DNA of 64,000 nt. It comes from Rhynchopus sp. YZ270_cl-10. Taxonomy: Eukaryota. The position numbers were made by a program, and so were the translations under genes. The DNA is taken from assembly GCA_964035575.1 (NCBI GenBank), contig OZ037836.1, positions 1,302,001 through 1,366,000 on the forward strand. Direction: 5' to 3'. Below are positions 6,461-60,115 of this stretch, one piece after another. Each line of letters begins with the position of its first letter. Positions within the stretch are counted from its first letter, which is position 1. Below the pieces are notes generated by a model. It ran no database searches and was not told where the DNA came from. It was given only the letters and a program-made list of their open reading frames with translations.

Positions 6461-7762
6461 TCATTGTGCGTGTCTCCGTCGCTTCTGGCTTTGCTCGGGG
6501 GATTCGTCTCTGCTTCGTTTCGGACGTGCTTCAACCACAAGCTTACTCAGCTTCTTGTCGCTCCTCACATCCTCGGACACATCACTGCTGCAGCCGGAAA
6601 GGTAAATGCTCGTCAACGATCTGCAGTTCGCAGCAAAACACGACCTTCGCGTGCTAAAACAGTAACCAATCGACGTCACCTTGCTGAGTGGCGACAAATC
6701 CAAGGTAGTTAAGCTGCTGCAGTTGGAAAGGAATTTGAGTTCAATGTCCGTAACATTGCTGAGTGGAGATAAATCCAGGCTTGTTAAGCTGCTGCAGTAC
6801 TGAAGGAAGCTCTCAGCGACCTCCGTAACGTTGCTGAGTGGTGCTAAATCCAGGGCCGTTAAGCTGGTGCATTCGGAAAGGAAGTTGCTCTCGATCCGCG
6901 TCAGGTTGCTGAGTGGAGACAAATCGAGGGTCGTTAAGCTGCTGCAGCCGTCAAGAAAGCAGTCATCAATCTGCGTCACGTTGCTGAGAAGAGACAAATC
7001 CAGGGTTGTTAAGCTGCTGCACTTCTCCAGGAAGCCCGAACGAACGTGCGTCACGTTGAGTGGTGGTAAATTGACGGAGGTTAAGCTCTCGCAGCTGGCA
7101 AGAAAGTTGCCACCAAGCTCCGTAAGGTTGCTGAGTGTAGATAAATCCAGGGCTGTTAAACTGCTGCACTTCCAACAGAAGCCCGCACCAACCTGCGTCA
7201 CATTGCTGAGTGGTGGTAAATCCAGGTTCGTTAAGCTCCTGCACTTCAGTAAGAAGTGCTCACCAACCTGCGTCACATTGCTCAACCCAGAGATGTCGAC
7301 ACTTGTCACCGAGGTGCAGTATGCCAGGAAGCTGTCTCCAATGTGAGTCACAATGGACTCAGCACTGAGATCAAGTCTCGTCACCGTGTCTGCGAAGGGA
7401 GTACACAAGAACTTATCCGGAATGACAGTCGCAACCTCCGCCTGCAGAAGCAAACACGCCATCTTGGGATTCCACACATGCTTCAACTTCTCGGCTGTGA
7501 TGTCGGTCACACCCAACGCATGAAGCTCTGCAATGGCTTCTTGCTTCTGCGACGCCTTCGTGAGGATGATTGTGTCACCAGCACTCAGCTGCGTCATGTC
7601 CGCTCCTTCTCCCATCGCTTCGCCTCCGAAACTCATGCAAAAGCCGTCTTCAGGCAACCCCATTGCAGACGCCACCTTCCGCTGCAAGCCCTCCACTGTG
7701 TCATCTTCACCCACCTCGACTGTGTGCTGATTCGTGTCGAAACCCTTGATGTTCAGGTCCAT
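6461..7762 (-). CDS. Ubiquitin-like domain + BspA-type LRR protein, copy 1 (433 aa, ~11 LRR units), basic NLS-like C-terminus
   Basis: N-terminal UBL pattern (MDLNIK..TVEVGEDDTVEGLQRKVA..LSAGDTIIL), 23-aa repeats LDLSPLSNVTxIxxxFLxxCxSLT, and a C-terminal RPKRSR...KRRRH. Confidence 0.9.
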   Translation of the reverse strand: MDLNIKGFDTNQHTVEVGEDDTVEGLQRKVASAMGLPEDGFCMSFGGEAMGEGADMTQLSAGDTIILTKASQKQEAIAELHALGVTDITAEKLKHVWNPKMACLLLQAEVATVIPDKFLCTPFADTVTRLDLSAESIVTHIGDSFLAYCTSVTSVDISGLSNVTQVGEHFLLKCRSLTNLDLPPLSNVTQVGAGFCWKCSSLTALDLSTLSNLTELGGNFLASCESLTSVNLPPLNVTHVRSGFLEKCSSLTTLDLSLLSNVTQIDDCFLDGCSSLTTLDLSPLSNLTRIESNFLSECTSLTALDLAPLSNVTEVAESFLQYCSSLTSLDLSPLSNVTDIELKFLSNCSSLTTLDLSPLSKVTSIGYCFSTRRSCFAANCRSLTSIYLSGCSSDVSEDVRSDKKLSKLVVEARPKRSRDESPEQSQKRRRHAQ

Positions 7763-9782
7763 ATCTTTCTTGTGGTTTTGTGTTGTGATCTCTGTGTGTG
7801 GTGGGGTGTGGAGGACAACAAGCCTGCTGTCCTTTTCAAGAACCTTGATCAGCTTGACAAAGAAGAACTGTGCGAAGAAGGGAGTTCAAAAGTGCAATAT
7901 CATCCTCATAAACAAAGCAACAACGGAACACCGAAATGACAACTTCGCAAACGTTATCTCAGCACACATCCAAGGATATGCAACACAACGATGCCCACTG
8001 TCCCTCTCCCCAACCCACAACCCCCGACTTCAGATCTCTCACCTCTCCACCCCCTCTCCCTGAACCAGCGCCCTTCACAGACGTTCCCTCCTCACGAAAG
8101 CAAACCCACCTTCCCCTGCCCCTCTCACGCACCTTTACCTGCCCCGTTCTGCACAAGAAACCCGCACAGCCTCCACGCTGTCTCCACCCACCCCACGCAA
8201 GGAATAACGCCAAAGGTGCTCTCGTGCTGCAACCACAGACAAGCTGAGGTGCCAGACAAATGCACGAAAGCACCCCACCGCCAGACACTGCTTCCCCTCC
8301 CATCATCACCACAAACGATCGAGGGAAGCGCCACACCCAAACCCCCCACACTCACAACACTGTGCACCTCCACCTCCTCTCACACACAACCCACAGACGT
8401 GCACCCCAACACATATCGCCCCTCCCTACCCTCCCTGGTAACGGCACATACGTGACCCTCCCTCAACATCGTGTCGAGAGCATCTGTCCCCACTGGTCGC
8501 CAGCACCTCTCTCTGGTGGAGCCACGCCAGCAGTGATGTGCCACATCATGCTGTCGGTGGTGGCACACATCTGATACTCGTGTCCATCCGCGTTCCGAAC
8601 CTGCCCCCTCCACCCACGTCCCTTCCTCTGCAGCAAAGTGCACAGCACCACACACCACACGTCACGTGTTGACTGCCAAAACCTGCATGATTAACAGTGC
8701 AGTTCCCACCTGCACTGTCTCACATGCCACACTGTAGCCACATCGTATGGGCTCGACAGTCATCGTCGTTTCGGGTATTCAGGGAAGAAAACTGATATCC
8801 TCATCCTTTTCGACCAGAAGCCCCACGCCACGTTACACGCCCTGGTATACGCGTAGACGCTTTCGGCACCAATGAAGGAACCTACTCACAGGGTGCCATT
8901 ACCATCGTTGATAGAGCACAGGTCTTGATGTAAGATGTTTGACCCACAGCCAACGCTATGACATTACGCCATCACGAAAAACCGTGGCCAAGGTAAGAAG
9001 AGAAAAGAGGCTGGAGTAGGGGGTGTACTTTATTATTTTTTGGGAAATGTAGCTTTTTTTGTTTGTTCAAATACTGAACCCGCACTGGATTGAGCTTTTT
9101 TGTTGTTTTTTTGTTTTTGTTTTTGTTTTTGTTTTTTGTTTTTTTTCGGGGGAAAGCAATGGGGGGGAGTAAGGGACAAAGGAGAATGAGGGTAAGGGAA
9201 TGGGGAAACACACACAGAACACACGTGGTCAGTGTTCCCCTCTTAGGAACTGCCCACACCTGCGTTCAAACAAATACACATACACAGATACACCGCGTGG
9301 TCATTGTATAGTACAAAGTATGAGATTCGGGAACGCTTCTTTTGTTGTCTTTTATTGAAAAACTTGGTTTTTTTTTTTTTTTGAAAGCTTGGTTGTATTA
9401 GTGTAGCCACCCTAGAGTGTGCTCCACTATTTTATAAAAAAAAATTATATAAATATAAAAAATGTAACCACCTACCTCCAAGTAGGGCCTGTACTCGATG
9501 TCGCCTGGGGGCTTTTTCTTTTCCTTTTTATTTTGTTTGCCTGCACTCAAAAGGGAGCATAGATTCAGTTCATCCTCAGCTCAAGAAAGTTGCTTTTTGT
9601 TTTGTTTTGTTTTGTTTTGCTTTTTTATGAAAACTTGGCTTTTTTTTGTTGTATTAGTGTCGGCACCCTGAGGATAGGCATTACTATACGTAACGCAACC
9701 TCAAAATTGCTGTGTTTATGGTGTTCCTGAAACACCTGTCAAGGACATGTTAATCTAGGCCATCTCTGGAACACCAATTTAT

Positions 9783-11736: not shown

Positions 11737-12334
11737 TAAAAAAAAATAAAGGGAAAAAAATTGTAAGATGATCCCACGTCTCTCGATGCTTTCTCATCTA
11801 ATCATACATGGCACCCTTTTTCACCATTCCTTTTTAGGGAACACTGCAATGTACGGTCCTCAAAGCTCCAAGAAAAATGGGGTCGGCAGGGATCAAGAGG
11901 GAAGTTGCCTTATCCTAAACGTGCACACACAACTGGCCAAAGAGGCGTCACTCACCTATTGCGTCATCAATTGAAATAACATTGCTTACCAAAAATGGTA
12001 TAATACTGCCCCATTTTTCATTCGTATTTTTTTGCCCCCGCAAACCAACTGAACCATCAAAAATAAATTCACACACATGAACAAGGGTGCACATCGTTTT
12101 CAACTCACGCAAAAAAAAGTAATAAAACATAAATAAATAAATGACAGTTGCTCCGATGAACCCAAGCCTCACGCTCAAAGCCTGGCCTTACGCGGCTTTC
12201 TTCGCTGCTGCTACAGGCCTTCCGCGCCCGGCAGGGAAAGGCACGTCACCTTCGCCAGGCCCCTGTGTATGTGTGGTGCGTTTCATTTTGTCTAGTTTTT
12301 CAAAAATTACAATAGCAGCAACAGGTAGGTAATA

Positions 12335-12531
12335 CACGACGGTGAAGTAAACGACATGACATGTGCTTTTTACATGTGTATTACATGTTAAAACACATAT
12401 CATTTTACATGTAAAGTGACACGTGCCACAGGTAAAATGACCTGTTGAGTACATATCATTTTTATGTGGCGCATGTCATTGTTTTTCACATGTCATTTTA
12501 CATGTGGCATGTCATTTGCTTCACCGTCGTG
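12335..12531. mobile_element. Short MITE with CACGACGGTGAAG TIRs (CACTA/EnSpm-like termini)
   Basis: TIR pair with internal ACATGT repeats. Same family as 24917-25072 and 37871-38099. Confidence 0.75.
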
Positions 12532-12881
12532 TTTTTGCCGTTCCCAGAAGGGAGGGGGGTTAATAAAAAAGTGTTGAAAAACCATAAAATGGTTGGTTCT
12601 CTCTGTATTGCTTTGGCTTTTATTTTTTTTTGCCAAAAAAAAAGCATTTTAGTTTGAAAGTTAACATCCAGAAGGGAGGGGGTTTGAAAGTTTGTATGTT
12701 TTGTTTTTCTGCTACTCTGTTTACTTTGCATTATATTTCGTCATAATAACTTTGTAAGTTAAGAGGTTGGTGCACTTCTTTGTTGAGTGGATATGAACGG
12801 TCCACACGATGGGCTTTCTCGAGCACAATAATATCCGTAATCATCGTAATCTTTTTTTTTTTAATCTCCCCCTCTCCGTCC

Positions 12882-13430
12882 CAGGCATGAGAATAAGGTT
12901 AGGGGGGTGCGGGTCCGGGGTCCGGGGTCCGGGCTATTCTCACAAGGGGTGGGGTGGGGGTGAGGGGGTCTCGGTTTTTTGGAGTGCTGAACGACACGTT
13001 GGGTGTGGGGTGGGGTGAGGGGATCTCTAAGCTGACTCTAATCTATGTAAAGATTCACAAATGGGGCTTTCTCGGGACCCCCTCTTGACAGCGGGGGTGC
13101 CGGACAGGCTGTCATGTACAGCTGCCTGGGGTGATGACATAGTAAAATTTCTGTTGTGGATGTGTTGGTGCTGGGAATGGGTGGGGGTGTCGGGGTTTAA
13201 CAGGGTGCCGGGCAGGGTGCCGGGCAAGGTGCCGGGCAGAGTGCAAAATGAAAATACCAAAAAACACCGGCATTTGCATTTTCGGAATCCGTGCGGCCAG
13301 TGGTGGGGTCACTTTTCCAAAATGGACAAGTTCTTAGAGGGTGGGAAGGGAGCAAGAGTAGGGTAGGGGGGTGTGGGGTTCCGGGGGGCCGGGTCCGGGG
13401 TCCGGGGTCCGGGCCTTATTCTCATGCCTG
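12882..13430. mobile_element. hAT-like MITE, probably intronic in the RRM-R3H gene
   Basis: 17-bp TIR CAGGCATGAGAATAAGG with a near-perfect 8-bp TSD (CTCCGTCC / CTCCCTCC). It lies just past the GT donor at 13466. Confidence 0.8.
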
Positions 13431-13466
13431 CTCCCTCCCCTCTCCTCCCCTCCCCTCCCCACATAC

Positions 13467-15235
13467 CTTGCAGTGCACGATGTCTTCATGCTTTACCGCG
13501 AGCTTGTTCGGACGCTCCCTAACCACCCCTGCACCGCTTGCCCCAAAGGACCCATTCCCTGGAGTACGCGGAGGGGGTGTGCCGACCGAGGGTCTGTGCA
13601 CAGGGGTGCTGCGTGCCGACGCACCGCCTCTCTTGTGGGTGCACACTGTACCCTCCGCGAGATGACTCCATCTGAGGCTGTGTCGGTGACACAGCTTTCG
13701 GATGTGCACGTAGGCAGGGTCTGAACGAGGCACCATTAGCTCCTTTCTGTCGTCAGCCTCGGCAAAGGCGGCAATGATCTTCTCCAAGGCAATCTCACTC
13801 TCCCCTGGCTCCGTGGGGTCGTCGTGCGCTGTGTACGCGATGTGCTCAGTAGGCGCCAGTGCAGGGCTCACCGAAGGGCTTTTGCCTTCGTACGTTTGGT
13901 CAAGGGGAACCCCGCGACCGTGGCTGTCAGGGCGGACACCTTGCTTGTGTTTGAATTCAACTCGGATCTGTAGTGAATTTTTTTAGTTTCGGCTAATCAT
14001 ATAGGATAGAATGGTGTACACAAAAAGTCGTTCACTGTCGTTCACTCAACCCAACTGTGCTCCGCAACACCACTATAGAGGGATGTGGTAGTGTGTGTGG
14101 AAGCGTCAACGCATCAAACAACTACAGGAAAGGGGGGGGGTGAGGAAACAAAAATCGTGATTTTTTTTTTTTGCTGATCTGAAAACCTAGTCGTTTGGAA
14201 TATACCTTTCGCGCATGCACGCTTAATTGTTCTATCTGGAAACGTCCCACCTCGGCCTCAGCATGGGTGTCGTACTTTGCAAACGCTATTCCCTTAAACG
14301 CACCTCGCTCATCATGGTAATAGCGTACATAGGAAGGCTTGCACGAAAGCTTAATCTGTGTGTGTGTGTGTATTGTTTTTTTTCCAGTTTTTGGGAGAAT
14401 TTGGTAAAGGGGGAGGGAGAACAATTTTAAAAATGGGAACAAAAATCGAGAACAAAAATTTCGATTTTTTTTTTTAATCTTGGTTGTATTATTAAGAAGT
14501 AATCGAGATGCAATACCCTCCTCCGATATTGTCACTGTACCTAATGTCGCTTCCTCTACACACGCAAAGCAATCCTGCGAGCCTACGCCCACCACCCGCA
14601 ACCACAGAACAGGTGCCAAGCGCATGGAAGAAAGACCGTTTGCAAGAAATTATTACGCATGCACTCGACGTTTGGATAAAGAAAACTATGAAAGGGGGTT
14701 TGGGGGGAAGAGTTTAATTCTTGAACCCCCACACTCACACATGTCTTGTAAAAAAAAACCCCCCTTTTGTTTACCATTCCTTAGGGAACGGTGCAATGGG
14801 TCCTATGAAGGCGGAGAAGAAAACATTCTCAAAAGCTTCTGTGTCGGATTTCTCTTTCAAGGAAAAGAAGACACAAACTCCGAATGATACGGTACAACTT
14901 ACATACAGTCCCGCCTCTAATTAGTGAATTTATAATTTATAAATTCAACCAAATCTGAAAATATTTAAAAAACGCCATCAATTATAGGCGGGACTGTATG
15001 TGCCTTCTCTTGCCTCTTGCCATACCAATTCCTCCATAAGTTCTTCGTGTTGCAGCTGAAAGGGCAGGTTCTTAAGGACGAGTGTCGAGTGCACCTTCTC
15101 TCGCGCGCTCTCGAGTGAGGTGGCACTGTGGTTGAATGGGAACGCCATGTTGCGCATGGCTGCGATGCCCTCCTCTGCTGCTGTCCAGGAACGCGTGTGG
15201 AACACAAAGGACACACGTCGGTCGCCTGCCTCACT
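13467..15235 (-). CDS. Spliced RNA-binding protein, RRM + R3H-like (resembles fungal Pin4/Cip1); exons ~15235-15026, 14355-14206, 13967-13467; possible last exon ~12262-12188
   Basis: GT-AG phase-0 joins rebuild STLVLKNLPFQLQHEELMEEL|IKLSCKPSYVRYYHDERGAFKGIAFAKY...HARK|IRVEFK (RNP2/RNP1), followed by an R3H-like segment (FAEADDRKELMVP..HIRKLCHRHSL). The 5' and 3' gene ends are uncertain. Confidence 0.75.
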
Positions 15236-16086: not shown

Positions 16087-16087
<1 letters not shown>

Positions 16088-16512: not shown

Positions 16513-19500
16513 CTACTGCAGGACATCGTCAGACACTCTCATCCCCGACGCCTCCTCCACGACGTGACCAAACCTGTTGGGACTCAAACTCACGCCCTGA
16601 CCTGCCAGCTTCTGTCGGGACCCCCAGTCGGCGGGCATCTCGTCGGTCTTAATCCACCTGATGTGAAGGTGTGCCTTCGCTGCGGAGAGTCGCGTGCTCA
16701 TCCTCCTCAGAATGGAGTTGCCCAGGCGGGTGCGGGAGTGGCCTCTCCTGAGGACATACTTCACCGCCTCGTTGTCCACGAAAAGAACGATAGCTGTGTG
16801 GCCGCCCTCCAAAGCTGCTGCCATGCCCTTCTCAGCCGCACGCAGCTCCAACACAAACATCTCTCCAGAGGTGTGCGTCGATTCCCACCGTCCGTGCCTT
16901 TCGACGCCAGAAAAAGAGTTCTGCAGCTTCGACACCCAGCCCCAGCCTGTCGTGGACGCGTCGGTCCATACTGCGATGGAGAAATGTATCGGGGGCGGAG
17001 AGGGGAAGGGAACCGTCACACAAGTCTGAATGTTCGCCACAGCGAAAGCTGCCAACTCCTCCTTCGTCGCAACGTGCATGGCCACGTCGTCATCCCATGA
17101 CAGCTTCTTGCGGGAGACGAGTTGTGCTTTACTGCGCACGAACTGCAAAGTGTGGCAAAGAAAACATAGCTTGAAATCCAGGACGTACGCGGCTCTGAAC
17201 ACAAGTCCGCATACCTTCCACCATTTTCGTAGGGAACAGGTCTCCAGCTTCAGGGTGTCATGAATGATGCGTGATGACTTTAACCTCCACTCCTCTGGTA
17301 ACGAAAAAGATTGCAACGGAAGGTTCCACACTATGCCGATGAAGTCAACGACTTCAGCCGGTTTAGCCATGGACTTCTTCACGTTTACCTCCGCACCCGC
17401 ACGCTGCAGACGGTCACGCACAAAAGCCGTCTTAGCCGCCGCCTCAGCAGGATATGCACCCCACACAAAAATGTCGTCAAGGTACACAACACCCCATTTG
17501 TTCAGAATGGGGCCAAGAAAAATCTCAGAAGTGTTCTGCGCGATGTACGGCGCGTACGCAAAACCCATGGGTAGACGCGCCCATCTAAACCAACGTCCCC
17601 CAGCCTGCACACAAAAATATTTGGACACCTCGGGTGAGAGGGGGAACTGGTGGAAATACCCCTTTAGGTCGGTCTGTTGAGCAAAGCGTGCGTTTGACAC
17701 CTTAAGCATTGTTGCAAGCTTGTGGGGGTTGACCAGGGAGAAAGGCTGTGGCTTGGCGATCCTTTTGTTAACAGGACGTCCATCCACCACTAGCCTCCGC
17801 AGTTGCGGGTCACTCTTCGGGACGTCAAAAACGCAAACTGCGCCCTTCTTGCGGTCAGTCCGAGCAAGAGGAATCAATACCTTCGACTTCACGCACTCCG
17901 ACACAAAAGAATTTGGGATTTTTGACTTCGGGCCAGGGAGCGGGATCGGTCCAGATAAAGCATCTGCAATCTTACGTCCGGAAGTACACCACTGCAGGAA
18001 ATCAGAGTCCTTCCCTACCTCCTCAGCCATCCTGCGCACGGCCTCCAACACGATTAGGCCCGTGGGGAAAGAATCAAGGCTTTTCTTTATGATGGGGGGG
18101 GGCTTGCAGAGCCCCACGGGGAAGTAGTCGGGGTCAGGCACCTCTATCCCCTCGTCGCAGACTGGTAGGGGATATTTCGCCCCGTTGATCAGTGCAGCAA
18201 CTGCAGGGTCTTCAGCTCCTCCGTCTCCCTCATCCGTGCAGATACGTTCGTCGCGTTCAGGTATGCCGCTGTCTGCCCCACGTTGCTGTGTCGCAGGAGT
18301 AGACGCATTCTTTCGTTTGATGCCCCCTGCAGTTGAATCGCTTGCGCCGCTCCTCTCTTGAATGAGTGCATCCACGTCCCCTTTGGCATGACCTTGCGAA
18401 TGCGCTCCATCAGCGACTCGAACTCTCGTGTGTTGCCCCCCATCACGGTGTTGTGGTGTTGCACAGTTCTCCAAAAAGACACCGCGATTGCTGTTAGAGG
18501 ACCCGGAGGAAGATAGATGGGGGGGCGAGCCACCAGGACGCCCTTCTCCTTCGCAAATAGTTCTGCTCCTACCTTGATCGGCGACTCCCCTGCACAATGA
18601 ATCTCGCGCCAATCCGATTTGTTCAGAAAACGTAGGTCTGGGACGCGGGACCTCGTCATGTAGGACATCGCAGCTAAAGCGGCGGCATGTTGGTCTCCGG
18701 CCTTGACAAGCTTGTTCACGCCGGTGATGACATCGGAGGGAGGAAGAGGTGGCGCCTGTCTCGGACGTACCGCCGCAGATAGTCTTCTGAGCGCCTTCTT
18801 TGCCCCCAATACACGGACCGTTGCGACCCCTCTGATCCCTCGCCGCTTGCACTCTCGCAGGATCTTGCACATGTAGCCTACTACGGAGCGGGGGGCCGCC
18901 GTACGTAGCCTGCGGTGCGCGAACTGCAGAAGATGCACTTCCTTGCTCAGATGAGGAGCAGTTGCGCAGCCCCTCAGGAAATCGCTCCACACTCGTTGCA
19001 CCTCTCCTTGGGTCGTTGGGGCAGTCGCGTGCAGGTGCAGTTCGTCCCACGGAATCCTCTCGTGCATCGCCCTCCCCAGGGCCTTTCCATCCCTGATGGA
19101 GAAAAAGTTGTGGTCGACCAAATTGCGGGGACCTCCTTTCGCTCGTGGTAGCCGCGATGCGAATCTTGTCGTTGGGGAAGGTGGTGGAGACAGATTTGGA
19201 GGAGGGCATACGCCCCATCGTAGTGGTGCCGGCTCTTCTTCCGCTTGGTGCAGGCCAACGTGTAGGCTGTCTGGGCGCAAAGCTGCCTTGTTGTTCTTGT
19301 TTTGGCGCAAAGCTGCCTTCTTGTTGTTCTCTTTTGGGCGCAAAGCTGCCGAATTGTTGACCTTTTTGTCTTTGTCTTTTATCAGGCGCGAAGCTGCCAA
19401 ATTGTTTTTGTCTTTGTTGTTGTTGTTGTTGTTGTTGTTGTTTTTGTTCTTGTTTTTGATTTTGATTTTGTTTTTTCTCAGGCGCAACGAAGCAGCCGAT

Positions 19501-26385: not shown

Positions 26386-27219
26386 TCATTGTGCGTGTCT
26401 CTGTCGCTTCTGGCTTTGCTCGGGGGATTCGTCTCTGCTTCGTTTCGGACGTGCTTCAACCACAAGCTTCCTCAGCTCGCCCTTCCTCACTTCGTCGGAC
26501 ACAACACTGCTGCAGCCGGAAAGGTAAATGCTCGTCAACGAAGTGCAGCGCGCAGCAAAATGCGCACTTCCAAAAGCCATAGTCATATGCGTCACGTTGC
26601 TGAGTGGAGACAAATCCAGGGTTGTTAAGCTGCTGCACTGCGAAAGGAAGCTCACACCCACCTGCGTCACCTTGCTGAGTGGTGACAAATCCAGGTTCGT
26701 TAAGCTCGTGCAGCACAACAGGAACTCTGCGCCAACCTCCGTCACATTGCTCAACCCAGAGAGGTTGATACTTGTCAACGAGATGCAGCCTGCCAGGAAG
26801 CTGTCTCCAATGCGAGTCACAATGGACTCAGCACTGAGATCAAGTCTCGTCAACGAAGTCCGTGCCAAGAAGTATTTCGGAATGACAGTCGCAACCTCCG
26901 CCTGCAGAAGCAAACACGCCACCTCAGGATCCCTCACACTCTCCAACTTCTCGGCTGTGATGTCGGTCACACCCAACGCATGAAGCTCTGCAATGGCTTC
27001 GTACTTCTTCGTTTTCGTGAGGATGATTGTGTCACCAGCACTCAGCTGCGTCATGTCCGCTCCTTCTCCCATTGGTTCGTCTCCGAAACTCATGCAAAAG
27101 CCGTGTTCAGGCAACCCCATTGCAGACGCCACCTTCCGCTGCGAGCCCTCCACTGTGTCATCTTCACCCACCTCGACCGCATGCTTCACTCCGTTCAACC
27201 CTTTGATAGTCAAATCCAT
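26386..27219 (-). CDS. UBL-LRR protein copy 2 (277 aa, ~5 LRR units)
   Basis: Start MDLTIKGLNG at 27219 by homology with the other copies. It has a different 5' flank. Confidence 0.9.
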   Translation of the reverse strand: MDLTIKGLNGVKHAVEVGEDDTVEGSQRKVASAMGLPEHGFCMSFGDEPMGEGADMTQLSAGDTIILTKTKKYEAIAELHALGVTDITAEKLESVRDPEVACLLLQAEVATVIPKYFLARTSLTRLDLSAESIVTRIGDSFLAGCISLTSINLSGLSNVTEVGAEFLLCCTSLTNLDLSPLSKVTQVGVSFLSQCSSLTTLDLSPLSNVTHMTMAFGSAHFAARCTSLTSIYLSGCSSVVSDEVRKGELRKLVVEARPKRSRDESPEQSQKRQRHAQ

Positions 27220-48682: not shown

Positions 48683-49573
48683 TCACTTCTGGCTTTGCTC
48701 GGGGGATTCGTCTCTGCTTCGTTTCGGACGTGCTTCAACCACAAGCTTACTCAGCTCGCCCTTCCTCACTTCGTTGGACACAACACTGCTGCAGCCGGAA
48801 AGGTAAACGCTCGTCAACGAAGTGCAGTTTCCAGCAAAATGCGTACCTCCAGCACGGCTGCCGATATGCGTAACGTTCCTGAGTGGCGACAAATCCAGGG
48901 TTGTTAAACTACTGCAGTGCGCAAGAAAGCTCCCACCAACCTGTGTAACGTTGCTGAGTGGTGATAAATCAACTGTAGTTAATCTCACGCATGCGTAAAG
49001 AAAGCTGTTACCAACCTGCGTCACATTGCTGAGTGGCGACAAATCCAGGGTCGTTAAGCTGTTGCAGTTTTGAAGAAAGCACTCACTCACCTCCGTCACA
49101 TTGCTCAACCCAGAGAGGTCGATACTTGTCAACGAGGTGCAGCCTGCCAGGAAGCTGTGACCAATGCGAGTCACAATGGACTCAGCACTGAGATCAAGTC
49201 TCGTCAACGAAGTGAATGACAAGAACCGATTCGGAATGACAGTCGCAACCTCCGCCTGCAGAAGCAAACACGCCACCTCAGGATCCTCCACACTCTCCAA
49301 CTTCTCGGCTGTGATGTCGGTCACACCCAACGCATGAAGCTCTGCAATGGCTTCGTACTTCTGCGACTTCGTGAGGATGATTGTGTCACCAGCACTCAGC
49401 TGCGTCATGTCCGCTCCTTCTCCCATCGCTTCGTCTCCGAAACTCATGCAAAAGCTGTCTTCAGGCAACCCCATTGCAGTCGCCACCTTCCGCCGCAAGT
49501 CCTCCACTGTGTCATCTTCACCCACCTCGACTGTGTGCTGATTCGCTCTGAAATCCTCGAAGTGCACGTCCAT
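48683..49573 (-). CDS. UBL-LRR protein copy 3 (296 aa, ~6 LRR units)
   Basis: Start MDVHFEDFRAN by homology. Ends in QSQK*. Confidence 0.9.
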   Translation of the reverse strand: MDVHFEDFRANQHTVEVGEDDTVEDLRRKVATAMGLPEDSFCMSFGDEAMGEGADMTQLSAGDTIILTKSQKYEAIAELHALGVTDITAEKLESVEDPEVACLLLQAEVATVIPNRFLSFTSLTRLDLSAESIVTRIGHSFLAGCTSLTSIDLSGLSNVTEVSECFLQNCNSLTTLDLSPLSNVTQVGNSFLYACVRLTTVDLSPLSNVTQVGGSFLAHCSSLTTLDLSPLRNVTHIGSRAGGTHFAGNCTSLTSVYLSGCSSVVSNEVRKGELSKLVVEARPKRSRDESPEQSQK

Positions 49574-51343
49574 TTGTGTGTTGTGGTTTTGTGTTCTGAT
49601 TTCTGTGTGTGGTGGTGGGGTGGAGGACAAGACAAGAAACACCCTATTTTGCAGGGTTGTTTCAACCCTGGGCGCTACGGCAGGACAGACAGCAGACCTG
49701 CAACAGCTCATCAGACCGCCCCACACAGCATGCCACAGTTGGCATGGTGCTGGCAAAGGTGAATGCTGCAAGACACCTGTTCAGCGTCAGGGGACTGCCC
49801 TGGTGCGCAGCTCTGCAGAGGACACTACGCAAGCTGTGGACATCGTGCATGCGTTTGAACGCACTGCGAACACAGTGAAGGTGACGTCAGAAGCATGCAC
49901 CCTGGAGAAGAAGATGTGCTGGTCCTATGCACGCATACAGCCTTGTGGTGAGTAGGTTCGAAGAAGCCCCCCGCAAAAGGTGAAGCAGATTCTTGGCGGT
50001 GGCGTAGCTGGCCCAGGTGGAGGGTGGCGGTGCCCAATAATGCAAGCAAATGCAGTTAGCAACATGCTAGCATATTGTGCCGTGCAGAGCGGCATGCAAA
50101 CGCAAGTTACTCAGTGTGGTGCGCAGCGTGTAGCCCTAGGCACACACTGCATATGAATCGTTTGATTGGATTGGGAATTTTGGGCTGACGCAAAATTATT
50201 GAAAAACTACTTCCTCCCAATAAATTCCCAACTACCCTCATTGGCCCCATGGATGCACTCTGGGGATAGAAATGTCAAGTTTTTGCGGCGGGTTTGGCGA
50301 ACATCGGAAGAACACGAAACACCCAAAACAGATGCACATTCTACCGTGCACTGCAGGACGCGCAATACTGCTTCCAAAAGAACGTTGACTTGTAACACAA
50401 CAACCCGGTCGTGGCAGTGCATCTTTGTACATCACCGGCTGTACTGGGGTGGACCCCAACCATGCAGTCCTACATCCATTTCGTGGTTTACATCTGACAA
50501 GGCCTACCCCCGCTTCCACTCATCAGCCACATGGGCGGGGAGCATTGCAGACACAGGGTCATGCATGTGTCATGCGTGATGCGTGGGAGAGTCTATAAAG
50601 CACAATCCCTGCGTCGCCAATTTGGTCGGAACAAAAAAGAAAGCAATAATGGAGTGCACACATGCATTACGAAGAGGAACCAGACTGCAGGCTGTTTCTA
50701 TCTTACATACCCCACAGACGTTCCCTCCTCACGAAAGCAAACCCACCTTCCCCTGCCCCTCTCACGCACCGTTACCTGCCCCGTTCTGCACAAGAAACCC
50801 GCACAGCCTCCACGCTGTCTCCACCCACCCCACGCAAGGAAGAACGCCAAAGGTGCTCTCGTGCTGCAACCACAGACAAGCTGAGGTGCCAGACAAATGC
50901 ACGAAAGCACCCCACCGCCAGACACAGCTTCCCCTCCCATCATCACCACAAACGATGTGGAGAACACCCAAACTCACCCACACTCACAACACTGTGCACC
51001 TCCACCTCCCACACCCAAGGACAGCCCTGCAAAGCCATAGGTAATGCCGTTCACCCCAAGCACCCCAATCACACCTCACACATCTTCGTGCAAGTTACCA
51101 AGAAGACAGTGAAAGACCACGTGGTGTCAACGAGTTCAGAGTGATGAATTACAGAAAAAAAAGTGGGGGTTGGGAGGGGAGGTACGTTGTAATGAATAAG
51201 ACATGGGTTTTTGTGGGGATTCTTTTCCAGCACAGAGTAAAAGAACACAATGTGTGGAACGTCTTGCTCAGCACAGCTCTCCTCTCGCACCAAGTAGTAG
51301 TCCGTGCCACCAACACACCACGTCGTCATTGTGCGTGTCTCTG

Positions 51344-52159
51344 TCACTTCTGGCTTTGCTCGGGGGATTCGTCTCTGCTTCGTTTCGGACGTGCTTCAAC
51401 TACAAGCTTCCTCAGCTCGCCGTTCCTCACTTCGTTGGACACAACACTGCTGCAGCCGGAAAGGTAAATGCTCGTCAACGAAGGGCAGAACGCAGCAAAT
51501 TCCGTACCTCCAAAACCGCTACTAATCTGCGTCACGTTGCTGAATGGTGATAAATCTAGGGTCGTTAAGCTGCTGCAGTACGCAAGGAAGCACGCGCCAA
51601 CCTGCGTCACATTGCTAAGTGGTGATAAATCGACGTTGGTTAAGCTGAAGCAGCAGGCAAGAAAGCTGTGACCAACCTGCGTCACATTGCTCAACCCAGA
51701 GATGTCGACACTTGTCAACGAGTCGCAGTGGGTCAGGAACCTGTCTTCAATGTGAGTCACAATGGACTCAGCACTGAGATCAAGTCTCGTCAACGAAGTG
51801 CCTCCCAAGAACCGACTCGGAATGACAGTCGCAACCTCCGCCTGCAGAAGCAAACACGCCACCTCAGGGTCCTCCACACTCTCCAACCTCTCGGCTGTGA
51901 TGTCGGTCACACCCAACGCATGAAGCTCTGCAATGGCTTCTTGCTTCTTCGTCTTCGTGAGGATGATTGTGTCACCAGCACTCAGCTGCGTCATGTCCGC
52001 TCCTTCTCCCATCGCTTCGTCTCCGAAACTCATGCAAAAGCTGTCTTCAGGCAACCCCATTGCAGACGCCACCTTCCGCCGCAAGTCTTCCACTGTGTCA
52101 TCTGCACCCACCTCGACTGTGTGCTGGTTCGTGTCGAAACCCTTGATGTTCAGGTCCAT
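51344..52159 (-). CDS. UBL-LRR protein copy 4 (271 aa, ~5 LRR units)
   Basis: Start MDLNIKGFDTN at 52159. Confidence 0.9.
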   Translation of the reverse strand: MDLNIKGFDTNQHTVEVGADDTVEDLRRKVASAMGLPEDSFCMSFGDEAMGEGADMTQLSAGDTIILTKTKKQEAIAELHALGVTDITAERLESVEDPEVACLLLQAEVATVIPSRFLGGTSLTRLDLSAESIVTHIEDRFLTHCDSLTSVDISGLSNVTQVGHSFLACCFSLTNVDLSPLSNVTQVGACFLAYCSSLTTLDLSPFSNVTQISSGFGGTEFAAFCPSLTSIYLSGCSSVVSNEVRNGELRKLVVEARPKRSRDESPEQSQK

Positions 52160-54332: not shown

Positions 54333-55166
54333 TCATTGTGTGTGTCTCTGTCGCTTCTGGCTTTGTTCGGGGGATTCGTCTCTGCTTCGTTTCGGACGTG
54401 CTTCAACCACAAGCTTACTTAGCTCGCTGTTCCTCACTTCGTCGGACACCTCGCTGCTGCAGCCGGAAAGGTAAATGCTCGTCAACGAAGTGCAGTTCGC
54501 AGCAAAATACTTACCTCCAATACTGGTACTAATCTGCGTCACATTGCTGAGTGGTGACAGATCCAGGGTCGTTAAGCTGGTGCAGCTCGCAAGGAAGCTC
54601 ACACCAACCTGCGGCACGTTGCTAAGTGGTGATAAATCGACGTTGGTTAAGCTCGTGCAGCCGGCAAGGAAGCAGTTACCAACCTCCGTCACATTGCTCA
54701 ACCCAGACAGGTCGACCCTTGTCAACGAGGTGCAGCCTGCCAGGAAGCTGTGACCAATGCGAGTCACAATGGACTCAGCACTGAGATCAAGTCTCGTCAA
54801 CGAAGTGCCTCCCAAGAACCAAGTCGGAATGACAGTGGTAACCTCCGCCTGCAGAAGCAAACACGCCACCTCAGGATCCCTCACACTCTTCAACTTCTCG
54901 GCTGTGATGTCGGTCACACCCAACGCATGAAGCTCTGCAATGGCTTCGTACTTCTTCGTTTTCGTGAGGATGATTGTGTCACCAGCACTCAGCTGCGTCA
55001 TGTCCGCTCCTTCTCCCATCGCTTCGTCTCCAAAACTCATGTAAAAGCTGTCTTCAGGCAACCCCATTGCAGACGCCACCTTCCGCCGCAAGTCCTCCAC
55101 TGTGTCATCTTCACCCACCTCGACTGTGTGCTGATTCGTGTCGAAACCCTTGATGTTCACGTCCAT
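54333..55166 (-). CDS. UBL-LRR protein copy 5 (277 aa, ~5 LRR units)
   Basis: Start MDVNIKGFDTN at 55166. Confidence 0.9.
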   Translation of the reverse strand: MDVNIKGFDTNQHTVEVGEDDTVEDLRRKVASAMGLPEDSFYMSFGDEAMGEGADMTQLSAGDTIILTKTKKYEAIAELHALGVTDITAEKLKSVRDPEVACLLLQAEVTTVIPTWFLGGTSLTRLDLSAESIVTRIGHSFLAGCTSLTRVDLSGLSNVTEVGNCFLAGCTSLTNVDLSPLSNVPQVGVSFLASCTSLTTLDLSPLSNVTQISTSIGGKYFAANCTSLTSIYLSGCSSEVSDEVRNSELSKLVVEARPKRSRDESPEQSQKRQRHTQ

Positions 55167-57074
55167 GTCTTTGTTGTGGTTTTGTGCTCTGATCTCTGTG
55201 TGTGGTGGTGGGGTGTGGAGGACAACAAGCCTGCAGTCCTTTTCAATGAAGGGTTGAAGGGGAGGGGTTCTTTGAGTGGTCAGCAAAGTGTGAAGAAATA
55301 AAGTGGCTTAGAATGGGTGGGTAGGCAGACACACTTTGCAAGGCTCTCTCACTTTTTGTGCTAAGAATAGCTTTTTCTCCACGCCCGCACAGCACGCCTA
55401 GAGGGAGTGGGGGGAAGCAGAACACTTTTGAAAGATGAACCTGAGCCTCTCGTACTCAGTCACCTTTAGTCACAACCTTGAAGTCCAAAACAAAATAGGG
55501 GAGTCCTGAGGTAAAGGGGGAAAGACGTTTTGAATCATCGACAAAAAAATAAAGAAAGAAAAGCCCGCGTGCACAGCCCTCCCCCTTCCGCCCTTCAACA
55601 AGGTTAGATTCGTTGCCTTCGTTTCAAATAAGAACAGTTTGTCAGGTGAGCCTAAGCCTCTCGTGCTTAGTCACCTTGAGCACAAACGTTGTCGTATGAA
55701 AACAAAGTGTGCACGGACAAGACAAGAAAGGCACCAGCGGGAGGGCAGGGGGGCATGAGCTATAGCTACTTGAATGTCGACAACAATTGCCACCTCCCCA
55801 AAAAAGGGGTTAGATTTGGGTAAAGAAAGAGCAGTTGAAACTAAAATACAGCTCGGTCGTGCTCATGCAAAGGGTGGGTGTGAGTGGTCCGTACCGTAAA
55901 AGAACGGAGGCGGTTCACAACCACTCGGAAAAAGGCTAGATTTGTCTCAAAGAAAGGTTTACAAGATGAACCTAAGCAAAAAAAAGTTATATGCAACATC
56001 GAGCAGTGGGAAACATCCACCGGATGTAAAAATATATTTAAAAGAAGTTAGCGAACTGAGGAAACAGTGAAATGCAACACAGCAACTGCAGCGGAGTTCA
56101 CAGTAATCTCGTGAACTCAAGATGGCTGATGGCACTGCAGGGTTGCATGCATCCAGTTATTCCAGGCAGCCACAGGACTGGAAGATACATGCAACAAAAA
56201 TAAGAAATACTATCACGTTTGATCTGCCAAGGACGCAACTAAAGACCTCATCACTTGCACGGCCTCCAACACAATGTGTGGAACGTCTTGCTCAGCACAG
56301 CTCTCCTCTCGCACCAAGTAGTAGTCTGTGCCACGGTGAGCAAGACTGTGCCCCTCTTCTTCTCCGAACCAGAGGACGCAAGCAGACATACTGCCAGAGA
56401 CCCTCCACCTCGGGGAGGTGCTGCCCTGCCACCAACACACCACGTCGTCATTGTGCGTGTCTCTGTCACTTCTGGCTTTGTTCGGGGGATTCGTCTCTGC
56501 TTCGTTTCGGACGTGCTTCAACTACAAGCTTACTCAGCTTCATGTCGTTCCTCACTTCGTTGGACACAACACTGCTGCAGCCGGAAAGGTAAATCCTCGT
56601 CAACGAAGTGCAGTTCGCAGCAAAATACGTAACTCCAAATAACACACGAATAAACGTCACATTGCTGAGTGGAGATAAATCTAGGGTAGTTAAGCTGCTG
56701 CAGTTCTCAAGGAAGCACGCACCAACCTCCGTCACCTTGTGGAGTGGTGATAAATCGATGTTGGTTAAGCTCTTGCAGCTTTCAAGAAAGTTGCCATCAA
56801 TCTGCGTCACATTGCTGAGTGGTGACACATCCAGCGTAGTTAAGCAGCTGCACTTCTCAAGGAAGTTCGAACGAACGTGCGTCACCTTGCTGAGTGGTGA
56901 TAAATCTACGTTGCGTAAGCTCGTGCATCCGGCAAGAAAGCTGTGATCAATCTGCGTCACGTTGCTGAGTGGTGACAAACCCAGGGTCGTTAAGCTGATG
57001 CATTTCTGAAGGAAGCACGCACCAACCTGCGTCACATTGCTCAACCCAGAGAGGTCGACACTTGTCAACGAGAT

Positions 57075-57686
57075 ATTAAACTTGAAAAACGTGATCCACC
57101 CCCGCAAAAAGAAAAACCAGCAAAAGGGAAGGATGGCACCACGGTGTGCCAGAGAGTGGCTTGATCCCATTTGCTGACTTATACCCAACAAAGAAGCGAC
57201 ACCTAAGTGAACAGGGGCCGTATACCACCGCTGGTGGCCTAGGTCAGTATATAAGCCAGTTCAAGGTCCGCACTCTGGCAGCGTCAAAAGAAATAAACAA
57301 CAATAAAACCACCAGTCATTCCAATGGGAGGAACGAATGACTGGCATCTCCTAATTCTCTAAACTGCGGTGAGTGGAACACCCAACTGATGCAAACCACT
57401 GCCGCAGGTTAGCACCTACAAAAAGCAAAGAAAAGCAAAGAAAAGAAAAGCAAAAGCTGTGCATGGTCGTAAAGTAGGTGCAGGGTCGCTTAAATCCCTG
57501 AGGGCACAAAAAGCCCAGCATACACCTCCTCCAGTTGCTTTGGACCCTCCAGTATCATGTGCCCGGGTTTGCAAAAGTGCAATGCAACCATCCCACGCGT
57601 GGCCTTCGTTCACTCAAAAAAGAGATTATATCCGGGGACGCCAGGGCAAAAATGCCGGGGGGCTGCCACCTCACGTTTTTGTCCCC
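57075..57686 (-). mobile_element. 612-bp SINE-like retroposon with a 20-bp TSD
   Basis: TCGACACTTGTCAACGAGAT is duplicated at 57055-57074 and 57687-57706. Confidence 0.88.
57597..57686 (-). ncRNA. HDV-like self-cleaving ribozyme candidate at the retroposon 5' end
   Basis: P1 GGGGAC/GUCCCC, P2 GUGGC/GCCAC, P3 GCC/GGC, GG after P1 able to pair with CC in L3, P4 CUC/GAG, and J4/2 CGAAG. The element starts exactly at the first G of P1. Confidence 0.7.
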
Positions 57687-57878
57687 TCGACACTTGTCAA
57701 CGAGATGCAGCCTGCCAGGAACCAGTCTCCAATGCGAGTCACAATGGACTCAGCACTGAGATCAAGTCTCGTCAACGAAGTGCATGACAAGAACCAACCC
57801 GGAATGACAGTCGCAACCTCCGCCTGCAGAAGCAAACACGCCACCTCAGGATCCTCCACCTCCTCCAACCTCTCTGGC

Positions 57879-58484
57879 TATAAACGTTTTTAAAAATAGG
57901 ATGGAACACCCCGTTCCGAAGAGGAATGCAGCCACCCCGAAAAAGTGGGGGTGTGTCGCCAGTCTGCGGTGAGAAACTCCTCCCTGAGTCAAAACTGCCG
58001 CTGGTTAGCGCTGGCTAAGGTTCCCTTTTCACCCGGTCACAATCGAGTCTCGCTCCGTCGGCGTTGACTGCACTGCAAAGCCCCTTGGTCCACCGTCGTA
58101 AAAAGACACCACAAAAAGCGTAGGTAGGTGGGGGACCGGCAGGTTACAGACAGAGGCAGTACGGAGCTAAGGTGTCGGCGGTCGCGGGTTGCCGTGGAGG
58201 CCTGCCCCCCGTGGAGGTCTTGGGATCTGGGAGTTTTGTGGAAGTAATCGGCTCAGAGTACCCTGCATTCCATGCACGACTCGAGCTCCTTGTGGTAGGA
58301 TATTGGGGTCCCGGGAAGCACCCTTCGCCCCGAGGTCCCACCACCCCAGACAGTTTGTAGGTCTAAAAGCACAACGTACTTGTCCAGGACCTGGCCGCTC
58401 TTGGGTTCTCTCGAAAAAAAGATACTAATCCCGTACGCCCGTGCACCGCAAAAATGTGCTATGGGGGGCGGTCCGCCGTCGGGT
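57879..58484 (-). mobile_element. 606-bp SINE-like retroposon with an 18-bp TSD and a degenerate HDV-like/ingi-signature-like 5' end (~58392-58484)
   Basis: TCCTCCAACCTCTCTGGC is duplicated at 57861-57878 and 58485-58502. The 5' end reads CCCGACG...CGTACGGG-ATTAGTA-stem-GAACCCAAGAGC. Confidence 0.85.
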
Positions 58485-60115
58485 TCCTCCAACCTCTCTG
58501 GCGTCAGGTCGGTCACACCCAACGCATGAAGCTCTGCAATGGCTTCTTGCTTCTTCGTTTTCGTGAGGATGATTGTGTCACCAGCACTCAGCTGCGTCAT
58601 GTCCGCTCCTTCTCCCATCGCTTCGTCTCCGAAACTCATGCAAAAGCTGTCTTCAGGCAACCCCATTGCAGACGCCACCTTCCGCCGCAAGCCCTCCACT
58701 GTGTCATCTTCACCCACCTTGACTGTGTGCTGATTCGTGTCGAAACCCTTGATGTTCAGGTCCATGTCTTTGTTGTGGTTTTGTGTTCTGATCTCTGTGT
58801 GTGGTGGTGGGGTGTGGAGGACAACAAGCCTGCAGTCCCTTTCGAGAACCTTGCCAAAGAAAAACTGTGCGAAGAAGGGCCCCTCTCCCCGACCCACAAC
58901 CCCCGCACCACTCTGGGTGTAATGTATGTACGTTAGCTTTTCCTCTCATTTTTCTTGTCAGAAATATTAGAAGTCCCCCTTACAGGCACACTTGTAAGTC
59001 TTACAACCATTTTACACGCACCTGAGTGCATCATGTATCCATCAAACACCTGGCTGGCTTACTCACACAACAACAACAACAAAAATGAAAAGAGCTGCAA
59101 CCCGCCACCATCCAGGAGGATGCGGACACGGCAAGCACGTCATGTACTCGGTAAGGCTCAGCAACAACAGTGATGCACATCTGTGCGATCAAGCTGCGTA
59201 AGTTCCCGAGCCAAGCAAGCAGAACGGGAATTCCTTTACAAAGGCAGTCATTTGTGGCGGGAGTAGATGACCTGTCCGAAGATCGACATTGTACAGCTGC
59301 ACAATCAGCAGAACTGAAAACCCCAGAGGGGAAACGTACCACCAACGCCACCACGCCCACGAAGACTGCAGCCCCGAAAGACACGACCGCTCCCGGAGGG
59401 GAAAAGGTGAAGAGAGTAGACGAGCCAGACGTGACCTACTACAGGAAGAGCGAGAGCGCTGAGTGCCCATCATTATCTCTTTCACATCGCGAGCGGGATG
59501 CCGCACCCTCACCTCCTGCCACCTACAACAGACCTTCCACTACACTACACTGTCATATGTGACAGGGAAAGCAGCCTCTCGCCACCCGGGAGTACGAGCG
59601 GGTGTTCCAGATTCCTCTTTCGCCAGATTACATTTACCACAAAGCTGGCTGTTCGCGTAGAAGAGGGACATCGTGCAGGTGAAGGTGGGCCTGCGGGAGA
59701 AGCTCATGGTGGACACGGTGTCCCCGACACCATGGGCAACGCTGTTCAACGTCCCGAAGCACGACGTCACACTGGAGGACTCTGCAATACAAGAAAAGAT
59801 AATCACGTACCGCATCAACCCAGCACATCAGCGATTACTTCCTTCTCCTACTCAGCGCACTCTGAACGCATGAAGGCCGCACTGCAATCTGGCAATGGTG
59901 GGAGGCAGAGGGAGTGGCGGGATGACCAGCATCCAGAGCAACACGCTGCGCCTGGCCGTCACTACGCTAGAGACAGACCTGCAAGGTGGAAACCCCGCAC
60001 CCACCACTGCCGCCACACCGCCACACCCGACACCTCCCCCACGACACAACACCAGCACCACGCCCGCAAACACTCCTCTCCAGCAGATCGGGGAGTACGA
60101 AGAGGCTGGCAGTAA

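What the first reader, a model, noticed from the sequence alone, without database searches (positions are those of the whole stretch)
6461..58765. Hypervariable UBL-LRR-NLS gene family: candidate diversified intracellular recognition system
Seen: six paralogues have a largely conserved UBL, linker, LRR framework and C-cap, but 11/5/6/5/5/8 LRR units (69-bp modules). Variation concentrates around the xxFLxxC positions and in a loop in the last repeat: GYCFSTRRSC, TMAFGSAH, GSRAGGTH, SSGFGGTE, STSIGGKY, RVLFGVTY. Known: UBL domains can dock on the proteasome, and variable-number LRR solenoids with a variable C-terminal loop are how lamprey VLRs diversify binding. Inference: these could be nuclear or cytosolic adaptors that recognise diverse targets (viral, endosymbiont or TE proteins) and deliver them for degradation, diversified by module shuffling.
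Basis: partly seen in the sequence, partly recalled or inferred. Interest (0 to 1): 0.8.

Follow-up and report, generated by a model that had tools for sequence, protein, structure and literature searches.

The report
Diplonemid variable-LRR binder gene family
A marine flagellate carries hundreds of related genes that join a ubiquitin-like head to a repeat coil whose one edge changes unusually fast, which likely makes them a set of intracellular binders for changing foreign proteins, although no target or link to protein degradation has been shown.

Summary
Six same-strand paralogues have 11/5/6/5/5/8 repeat strands and the six quoted loops. Corrections: the unit is 75 bp (25 aa), not 69; copy 6 is split by two TSD-flanked inserts; three copies lose the second basic cluster of the NLS-like tail. 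The host is most likely a diplonemid. At least 283 protein clusters share the family's N-cap; every listed one is unnamed. The fold is ubiquitin plus a TpLRR/BspA solenoid. Diversifying selection is shown for seven positions per repeat and the last loop (omega 2-8, framework 0.2-0.3; site-model LRT 91). These sites lie away from the LxxLxL strand, which is conserved, unlike VLRs. Recombination is detected, but nearly every repeat is unique, so point change and repeat-number change dominate over cassette copying. A spliced-RNA run covers the family. Proteasome delivery is weakly supported: the Ile44 patch and the midnolin-type linker are both absent, and an acidic UBL face is conserved instead. 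Verdict: a real, apparently undescribed arms-race binder family; a new variant of known protist LRR expansions; targets unknown.

The parts
6461..7762 (-). Copy 1, 433 aa: UBL, N-cap, 11 repeat strands, C-cap, full basic tail
26386..27219 (-). Copy 2, 277 aa, 5 strands, full tail; N-terminal tract of another subfamily
48683..49573 (-). Copy 3, 296 aa, 6 strands, tail shortened by TGA; N-terminal tract of another subfamily
51344..52159 (-). Copy 4, 271 aa, 5 strands, tail shortened by TGA
54333..55166 (-). Copy 5, 277 aa, 5 strands, full tail (P0001; modelled)
56466..58765 (-). Copy 6, 8 strands, interrupted by two inserts, tail shortened by TGA; probable pseudogene
57879..58484 (.). Insert 1 in the N-cap of copy 6, flanked by an 18-bp direct repeat (57861-57878, 58485-58502)
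   Evidence: high contig depth in a DNA-like run
57075..57686 (.). Insert 2 in repeat 2 of copy 6, flanked by a 20-bp direct repeat, with 10-bp subterminal inverted repeats; the same insert starts at the same site in P0121 and P0122
6191..6460 (-). Shared 3' flank of the cassette (example: copy 1); first 170 nt differ by only 1.3% among copies
7763..8817 (-). Shared 5' flank / spacer of the cassette (example: copy 1)
2987..4143 (-). 5' flank of a seventh cassette, joined just before the start codon position to a 5'-truncated non-LTR RT-RNase H reading frame that runs off the window
60539..61358 (-). Cassette spacer and flank without a gene body

Best explanation
This is a large, young, recombining gene family of a probable diplonemid whose products are predicted to be soluble, likely nuclear adaptors: a TpLRR/BspA coil whose fast-evolving edge likely binds many different and changing foreign proteins, and a constant acidic ubiquitin-like head that would hand the complex to one fixed host partner. 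Shown: architecture, family size, tandem clustering, diversifying selection on positions 14, 16-18, 21, 22, 24 of each repeat and on the last loop, recombination, repeat-number change, long-term constraint on the UBL, transcripts of the family. Inferred: that the variable positions form one binding stripe, that the drivers are intracellular parasites (symbiont effectors, viruses or transposon proteins), and nuclear import. The constant partner is most likely a protein-turnover factor that reads the acidic UBL face, not the Ile44-patch proteasome receptors; this last step is the weakest.
For: Fold: Pfam ubiquitin and LRR_5; AlphaFold pLDDT 89.6; best structural matches TpLRR 6mlx and 4fs7, Z 13.1, rmsd 3.0 and 2.8, 151 and 136 aligned. 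No hydrophobic N-terminus in 6 of 6 copies. Selection: fixed-site omega 7.8 or 2.8 (shared or free synonymous rate; p 2e-24, 0.004) on orthologous modules and 2.2 or 3.6 (p 2e-5, 3e-4) on 21 repeat units, framework 0.2-0.3; class defined from 146 non-window proteins gives the same seven positions; M1a/M2a LRT 91, 10 of 12 selected sites in that class and 2 in the N-cap; tree-free pN/pS 2.0, CI 1.3-3.4, neutral simulation P 0.03 or lower in 6 of 6 settings; loop pN 0.47, pS 0.14. Aromatic residues fill 28-30% of positions 18 and 21. Recombination: PHI p 0.001 on 126 proteins, 0.02 on six genes. UBL: 14 of 70 columns invariant in 126 proteins, 0.19 expected at uniform rate; acidic E16, D20, D21, E38, D39, D55, D63 kept at 96-100%. 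RNA: run X5 holds a contig spliced at GT-AG introns of the neighbouring gene and contigs on the copy-1 coding region at 88% likeness or more. Some diplonemids carry cytoplasmic symbionts with secretion systems and LRR proteins (10.1101/719211, passages).
Against: No target, localisation or partner is known. Among the six window copies the UBL and N-cap show no clear purifying selection (omega 0.71-0.94 and 0.87-1.85; few changes). About 18 of 165 listed ORFs are truncated and the search favours whole ones; an insert-bearing form exists in at least three paralogues, so broken copies also spread. 29 of 165 keep only the first basic cluster. The RNA evidence is for the family, not for a given copy, and the run also has contigs on intronic or intergenic repeats. 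Codon tests rest on six genes.
Confidence: 0.5

Rival explanations
1. Midnolin- or RAD23-like direct proteasome adaptors: the LRR catches a target and the UBL or the basic C-terminal helix docks it on the 19S particle for ubiquitin-independent degradation.
For: Same domain order as midnolin: UBL, binding domain, C-terminal helix with NLS (PMC10617673 passages; predicted helix 266-276). A minimal midnolin with only these parts works (10.1101/2025.02.22.639686 section 6). Other genomes' notes report repeat solenoids fused to ubiquitin-system modules in giant viruses (unchecked).
Against: Ubiquitin Ile44 position is S 131, G 19, R 3, N 2, C 1 of 156; Val70 position is T in 141 of 156. Midnolin needs buried linker residues V99, V102, A104 and a 12-residue linker; here the equivalent positions are polar or variable and a helix starts at residue 71. 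The tail helix is short and cut in many copies. UBL structural hits are tied across all ubiquitin-like folds.
Confidence: 0.15
2. Crinkler-like offensive effectors: the UBL is a delivery header and the NLS acts in a prey or host cell, where the LRR binds varied targets.
For: CRN proteins have a Ubl header without signal peptide, go to the nucleus, recombine and sit among mobile elements (PMC5289972 passages). D. papillatum is described as predatory (PMC10161547 passages).
Against: No Crinkler Pfam match at E up to 1 in 3 of 3 N-termini; no enzymatic C-terminal domain; no delivery route known.
Confidence: 0.12
3. Mostly non-adaptive expansion: a cassette amplified by unequal crossing-over in a repeat-rich region, with variation simply tolerated at exposed positions.
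For: Near-neutral omega for UBL and N-cap among six copies; very low flank divergence; truncated and insert-bearing copies.
Against: Tolerance gives omega near 1, not 2-8; other exposed positions (strand x sites) have pN 0.18 against pS 0.66; invariant UBL columns across subfamilies; RNA cover.
Confidence: 0.1
4. Internal-conflict or self-recognition family: binders of the organism's own fast-evolving nuclear proteins (transposon products, drive or incompatibility factors, paralogue decoys) with a sequestering rather than degrading output.
For: NLS-like tail; dense association with a LINE, a YR-type element and TSD inserts; Tetrahymena LRR genes are likewise tied to a retrotransposon (PMC6564038 passages).
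Against: Mobile elements insert in any permissive array; nothing links the proteins to them.
Confidence: 0.13

Closest known systems
BspA-like / TpLRR families (Pfam LRR_5; Trichomonas vaginalis 911 genes, PMC2843621 abstract and passages)
   Same: Same repeat class and fold; large expansion in one protist; variable repeat number; pseudogenes.
   Different: 25-residue unit; N-terminal UBL and basic tail; no signal or membrane segment. The Trichomonas family is framed as extracellular and the word ubiquitin does not occur in that paper's main text.
UBL-DUF285 (PARCEL) proteins in the ESM Atlas; PARCEL repeats (PMC2996958, abstract)
   Same: Two Atlas clusters of 50 and 55 members carry ubiquitin (100%, 89%) plus DUF285 (96%, 100%), so UBL plus a 25-residue solenoid exists elsewhere.
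   Different: Scores 0.82-0.85 are leads only; no DUF285 match in the six copies at E 0.01; TIGR02167 match below its cut-off; taxa mostly not recorded.
Tetrahymena 90-bp-exon LRR genes (PMC6564038, passages) and brown algal ROCO LRRs (PMC11378527, abstract)
   Same: Species-specific LRR expansion, repeat-number change by unequal crossing-over, association with retroelements, proposed immune role; diversifying selection in ROCOs.
   Different: Here the genes have no introns, use a TpLRR unit, and carry a UBL instead of kinase or GTPase domains; Tetrahymena genes are reported as mostly under purifying selection.
Midnolin (PMC10617673 passages; 10.1101/2025.02.22.639686 passages and section 6)
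   Same: Domain order UBL - binding domain - helix with NLS.
   Different: Single conserved gene with a Catch domain; its Rpn11-binding linker residues are not kept here; tail helix here is short and often cut.
Lamprey VLRs (features recalled; somatic assembly also stated in PMC9525666)
   Same: Variable number of LRRs, constant caps, variable loop near the C-terminal end.
   Different: No somatic assembly, intracellular rather than secreted or GPI-anchored, different LRR class, variation not on the LxxLxL strand, units not copied from a shared cassette pool.
FNIP / FGxxFN families of CroV and Dictyostelium (PMC9525666, first part and passages)
   Same: Large repertoire with a conserved concave strand and variation at an edge of the repeat.
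   Different: 22-residue unit, other consensus, no UBL reported in the passages read.

Membership tests
TpLRR / BspA (LRR_5) | Pfam LRR_5 above gathering score | tested here: met
   6 of 6 copies, 37.4-92.9 bits against 27.7
TpLRR / BspA (LRR_5) | TpLRR solenoid fold | tested here: met
   6mlx and 4fs7 Z 13.1; 4h09 12.3; 4cp6 12.2
TpLRR / BspA (LRR_5) | Surface targeting (signal peptide or membrane segment) as in many BspA proteins | tested here: not met
   crude hydropathy scan: no hydrophobic N-terminus, maximum 19-residue mean 1.3-1.7 inside the N-cap helix
Ubiquitin-like domain | Beta-grasp fold like ubiquitin | tested here: met
   Pfam PF00240 above cut-off in 4 of 6 copies, below in 2; rmsd 1.4-1.6 over about 70 residues
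UBL proteasome shuttles (RAD23, Dsk2 type) | Hydrophobic patch at ubiquitin Ile44/Val70 (its role in receptor binding is recalled; UIM/UBA use noted) | tested here: not met
   S or G in 150 of 156 at 44; T in 141 of 156 at 70 (register for 1-56, by motif for the last strand)
UBL proteasome shuttles (RAD23, Dsk2 type) | UBA or other ubiquitin-binding domain | tested here: not met
   none in Pfam scan of six copies
Midnolin | Catch domain | tested here: not met
   middle domain is an LRR
Midnolin | Extended hydrophobic linker after the UBL that enters Rpn11 | tested here: not met
   T68, K69, variable 70-71, K72, helix from 71 against V99, V102, A104
Midnolin | C-terminal NLS helix that binds Rpn1 | tested here: inconclusive
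   basic tail with predicted helix 266-276 at low pLDDT; full two-cluster form in 94 of 165 by pattern; binding untested
Variable lymphocyte receptors | Variation on the concave LxxLxL strand | tested here: not met
   strand x positions pN 0.18, pS 0.66; entropy 0.8-2.1 bits against 2.8-3.7 at six of the seven variable sites
Variable lymphocyte receptors | Incomplete germ-line gene filled from flanking cassettes | tested here: not met
   complete genes, no free cassettes in the window (tblastn)
Crinkler / RHS (CR) effectors | CR header profile and enzymatic C-terminal domain | tested here: not met
   no Crinkler match at E up to 1; no enzyme domain
PARCEL / DUF285 | PF03382 or TIGR02167 above cut-off | tested here: not met
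   no PF03382; TIGR02167 29 and 27.4 bits against 30
Any adaptor family | Binding to a target and to a constant partner in the cell | not testable with these tools
   needs pull-downs

The most novel reading that the evidence does not exclude
A single-celled euglenozoan has evolved a germ-line repertoire of several hundred one-chain nuclear 'catch and destroy' receptors: a hypervariable TpLRR edge picks out symbiont, viral or transposon proteins, and the UBL plus NLS helix feeds them to the proteasome or p97 without ubiquitination, a TRIM21- or midnolin-like intracellular immunity built from a bacterial-type surface repeat.
Probability: 0.15. Interest if true: 0.88.

Novelty: new variant of a known kind. 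Interest (0 to 1): 0.55.

Why it matters
How free-living protists recognise intracellular invaders is largely open, and diplonemids are abundant marine flagellates with few genomes. This family gives a compact, intronless, testable set of candidate receptors with a clear selection signal on a non-canonical LRR surface. If the head couples to protein turnover through an acidic face, it would be a new way of using a UBL, and the scaffold would be a natural small binder library. If not, it is one more lineage-specific LRR expansion of unknown function.

Tried and rejected
No whole genome was held, so family-wide codon analysis was impossible; only six genes have DNA. The profile search of protein representatives never ran, so the range of the family outside this genome, including D. 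papillatum, is open; 163 of 283 and 532 of 652 hits were not listed. Viral contigs: no relative of the N-terminal module among 302 pattern matches or of the copy-1 repeats among 6. Metagenome contigs: none among 26. Prokaryote genomes: 1 weak LRR match (28%) among 103. Phages: none. These pattern scans find close relatives only. Rfam: nothing. The run search listed no holder on record as RNA; X5 was recognised as RNA only by its splice joints. In X5 the multi-copy 5' flank (7846-8527) had almost no cover (0.9-2.7 against thousands on the gene); as a part without cover this is not counted as evidence. X13 held next to nothing of the stretch; X8 and X9 had low cover and no splice joints. No contig joined across either insert of copy 6 within that copy among the 15 joints shown (80 not shown); the idea that the inserts are introns is unproven either way: insert 1's duplication holds AG|GT but with poor splice context, insert 2's does not. 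Single-sequence model of copy 1 was confident only in the repeats. No complex was folded. Literature searches for such a family listed no paper on it; the library lacks most subscription journals, and the supplements of the D. papillatum genome paper were not opened and may list LRR families. Four papers asked for by id were not held. An endogenous-virus origin was considered and dropped: host-like GC, shared flanks, no viral relatives found. Retro-duplication was dropped because upstream spacers are duplicated with the genes.
Full report
1. Observation. Six-frame scans and extraction give six minus-strand copies: 7762-6461, 27219-26386, 49573-48683, 52159-51344, 55166-54333 and 58765-56466. 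Three corrections. The unit is 25 residues, 75 bp (TRF period 75; 423 of 444 internal units in paralogues). Copy 6 is split by inserts of 624 and 632 bp with perfect 18- and 20-bp target-site duplications; apart from these its frame has no other break. Copies 3, 4 and 6 end at a TGA where the others have CGA, losing the second basic cluster. The genes sit in cassettes with shared upstream spacers and 3' flanks, and two further cassettes lack a gene body in the window.

2. Host and family size. No genome was held. The neighbouring intron-containing RRM gene has 1 relative among 861 candidates, Diplonema papillatum DIPPA_17115 at 35%, so the host is most likely another diplonemid. The whole protein finds 652 of 1922 candidates; residues 56-114 alone find 283 of 295. 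Each search listed 120; together 165 distinct proteins, all unnamed, ENA or window-encoded. These are clusters at 90% identity and 152-485 aa, so 283 is not a gene count, may include alleles, and omits long members. Strand counts in 109 parsed proteins of the first 120 run mostly from 4 to 11.

3. Structure. AlphaFold with 81 sequences gives pLDDT 89.6: a beta-grasp domain (1-70), three helices (71-106), a solenoid with two strand positions per repeat, a cap, and a low-confidence tail helix. Foldseek matches the head to ubiquitin at rmsd about 1.5. VIA-align ranks TpLRR/BspA structures first (6mlx, 4fs7 Z 13.1) and aligns them from residue 85, so the 'linker' is largely an N-cap. There is no signal-like or membrane segment by a crude hydropathy scan and no C-terminal GG after the UBL.

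4. Where the variation is. In 519 units from 146 non-window proteins the most variable positions are 21, 17, 18, 24, 22, 14, then 16; they alternate with the conserved I/V15, F19, L20, C23, as outward-facing residues would. The LxxLxL strand, the usual binding face of LRRs, is conserved: its x positions have pN 0.18 and pS 0.66. The last-repeat loop inserts 4-12 residues at the same register in 68 of 109 proteins and is absent or nearly so in 41.

5. Selection. A fixed-site codon model on orthologous modules of the six copies gives omega 7.8 for the 20 variable codons with a shared synonymous rate and 2.8 with a free one (p 0.004), framework 0.2-0.3; on 21 repeat units 2.2 and 3.6. Without prior classes, M2a beats M1a by 91 (2 df); 12 of 227 sites have posterior above 0.8, 10 in the variable class and 2 in the N-cap. 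Recombination can inflate such tests, so a tree-free count was added: pN 0.46, pS 0.24, ratio 2.0 (CI 1.3-3.4), reached by neutral star-tree simulations with P 0.03 or less in 6 of 6 settings. The loop in the five equal-length copies has pN 0.47, pS 0.14. Against: UBL omega is 0.71-0.94 and N-cap 0.87-1.85 among these six, and at 25 family-conserved UBL columns the six copies show 2 amino-acid and 1 silent change. The copies are too close for power there; across 126 paralogues 14 of 70 UBL columns are invariant against 0.19 expected. Copy 6, probably a pseudogene, was included in all tests.

6. How diversity is made. PHI-type tests detect recombination (p 0.001, 126 proteins; p 0.02, six genes), and copies 2 and 3 carry N-termini typical of other subfamilies on the local body. 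Repeat number changes, with 150-bp periodicity stronger than 75-bp in copy 6 (82% against 70%). But 429 units carry 421 distinct seven-residue codes and each of 21 window units matches its best outside unit at only 17-22 of 25 residues. So selected point changes and slippage matter more than copying of ready cassettes. Birth and death is evident: 20 of 165 ORFs lack a cap by pattern, 2 of them likely pattern misses.

7. Expression. Run X5 holds a 1928-nt contig spliced at three GT-AG introns of the RRM gene, so it contains mRNA, and its contigs lie on the coding region and 3' flank of copy 1 at 88% likeness or more, with joints that skip repeats as shorter paralogues would. This shows transcripts of the family in one run that was found with these genes. 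It does not show which copies are expressed.

8. What the head does. Ubiquitin aligns without gaps over residues 1-56. The Ile44 position is Ser or Gly in 150 of 156 and the Val70 position Thr in 141 of 156. The sheet face varies between subfamilies, whereas seven acidic residues are kept at 96-100%. Shuttle-type docking through the hydrophobic patch (role recalled; see also PMC4962041 passages) is thus unlikely. Midnolin has the same domain order and uses its NLS helix on Rpn1 and a hydrophobic linker on Rpn11 (PMC10617673 passages; 10.1101/2025.02.22.639686 passages and section 6); the linker residues are not kept here. A degradation output through another site or p97 (weak OTU1_UBXL match below cut-off) stays possible. 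I commit to: variable edge binds changing foreign proteins, constant acidic head binds one host partner, likely in the nucleus (0.5); direct proteasome delivery 0.15; Crinkler-like export 0.12; internal conflict 0.13; neutral expansion 0.1.

9. Comparison and novelty. Large LRR repertoires with proposed recognition roles are known in Trichomonas (PMC2843621, abstract and passages), Tetrahymena (PMC6564038, passages), brown algae (PMC11378527, abstract) and CroV (PMC9525666, first part and passages). Atlas clusters that join ubiquitin to DUF285 repeats exist (scores under 0.9, leads only), and unchecked notes of this scan describe repeat solenoids with ubiquitin-ligase modules in giant viruses. 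So the design is not categorically new. The searches listed no paper on a UBL-TpLRR family or on LRR expansions in diplonemid nuclei; the D. papillatum genome paper's main text has no 'ubiquitin' and its one 'leucine' concerns a codon (supplements not opened). It fails membership of VLRs, shuttles, midnolin, Crinklers and PARCELs, and is a member of the TpLRR/BspA class with a new domain setting.

10. Verdict. Real, large, under diversifying selection, transcribed as a family, apparently undescribed; function inferred only. New variant of a known kind; interest 0.55.

Noticed in passing
P0086, P0104, P0150, P0152, P0158, P0127, P0162, P0121, P0122, P0123; window 57075-57686: Possible insertion hot spot: of 20 listed ORFs without a C-cap, five break at the fifth codon of a repeat strand into one shared tail, two into another shared tail, and two into the tail of copy 6's insert 2. 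They lie on several contigs and in different repeats. Recalls retrotransposon hot-spot genes of trypanosomes; could also be non-canonical introns.
   Followed up: partly
window 2-2986 (-): 5'-truncated non-LTR element with RT and RNase H inserted just upstream of the start position of a seventh cassette; it reads in frame with the flank.
   Followed up: partly
window 16513-20940 (-): Element with overlapping ORFs: RT ORF 16513-19749, a 496-aa ORF with a tyrosine-recombinase-like end by eye (no Pfam match) and a gag-like ORF, set among TG repeats with repeated flanks; looks like a YR retrotransposon (label recalled).
   Followed up: partly
window 11971-15233 (-): RRM gene with GT-AG introns; spliced contig in run X5; only relative found is D. 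papillatum DIPPA_17115 at 35%.
   Followed up: yes
window 44945-48352 (-): 1135-aa ORF with signal-like start, 3.5 repeats of 131 aa (CUB-like by eye) and a C-terminal WD40 propeller; high contig depth suggests it is also multi-copy.
   Followed up: no
window 43479-44674: 1.2-kb element with long terminal inverted repeats (361 nt at 99%), MITE- or foldback-like.
   Followed up: partly
window 34053-36103: 2-kb perfect CAGTA satellite, next to a 9-bp related array at 33397-33647.
   Followed up: no
170 nt after the long-form stop of all six copies: 3' flank differs by only 1.3%, less than synonymous sites anywhere in the gene (3-24%): a conserved 3' UTR element or strong homogenisation.
   Followed up: partly
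window 56658-56907: The copy-6-specific repeats have about half the contig depth of a unique stretch at 59012-59613 in two runs (60 against 122; 143 against 321), a weak hint that this copy differs between haplotypes.
   Followed up: no
window about 50446-50497: Short sequence with extreme contig depth (millions) in DNA-like runs; a very high-copy repeat end.
   Followed up: no
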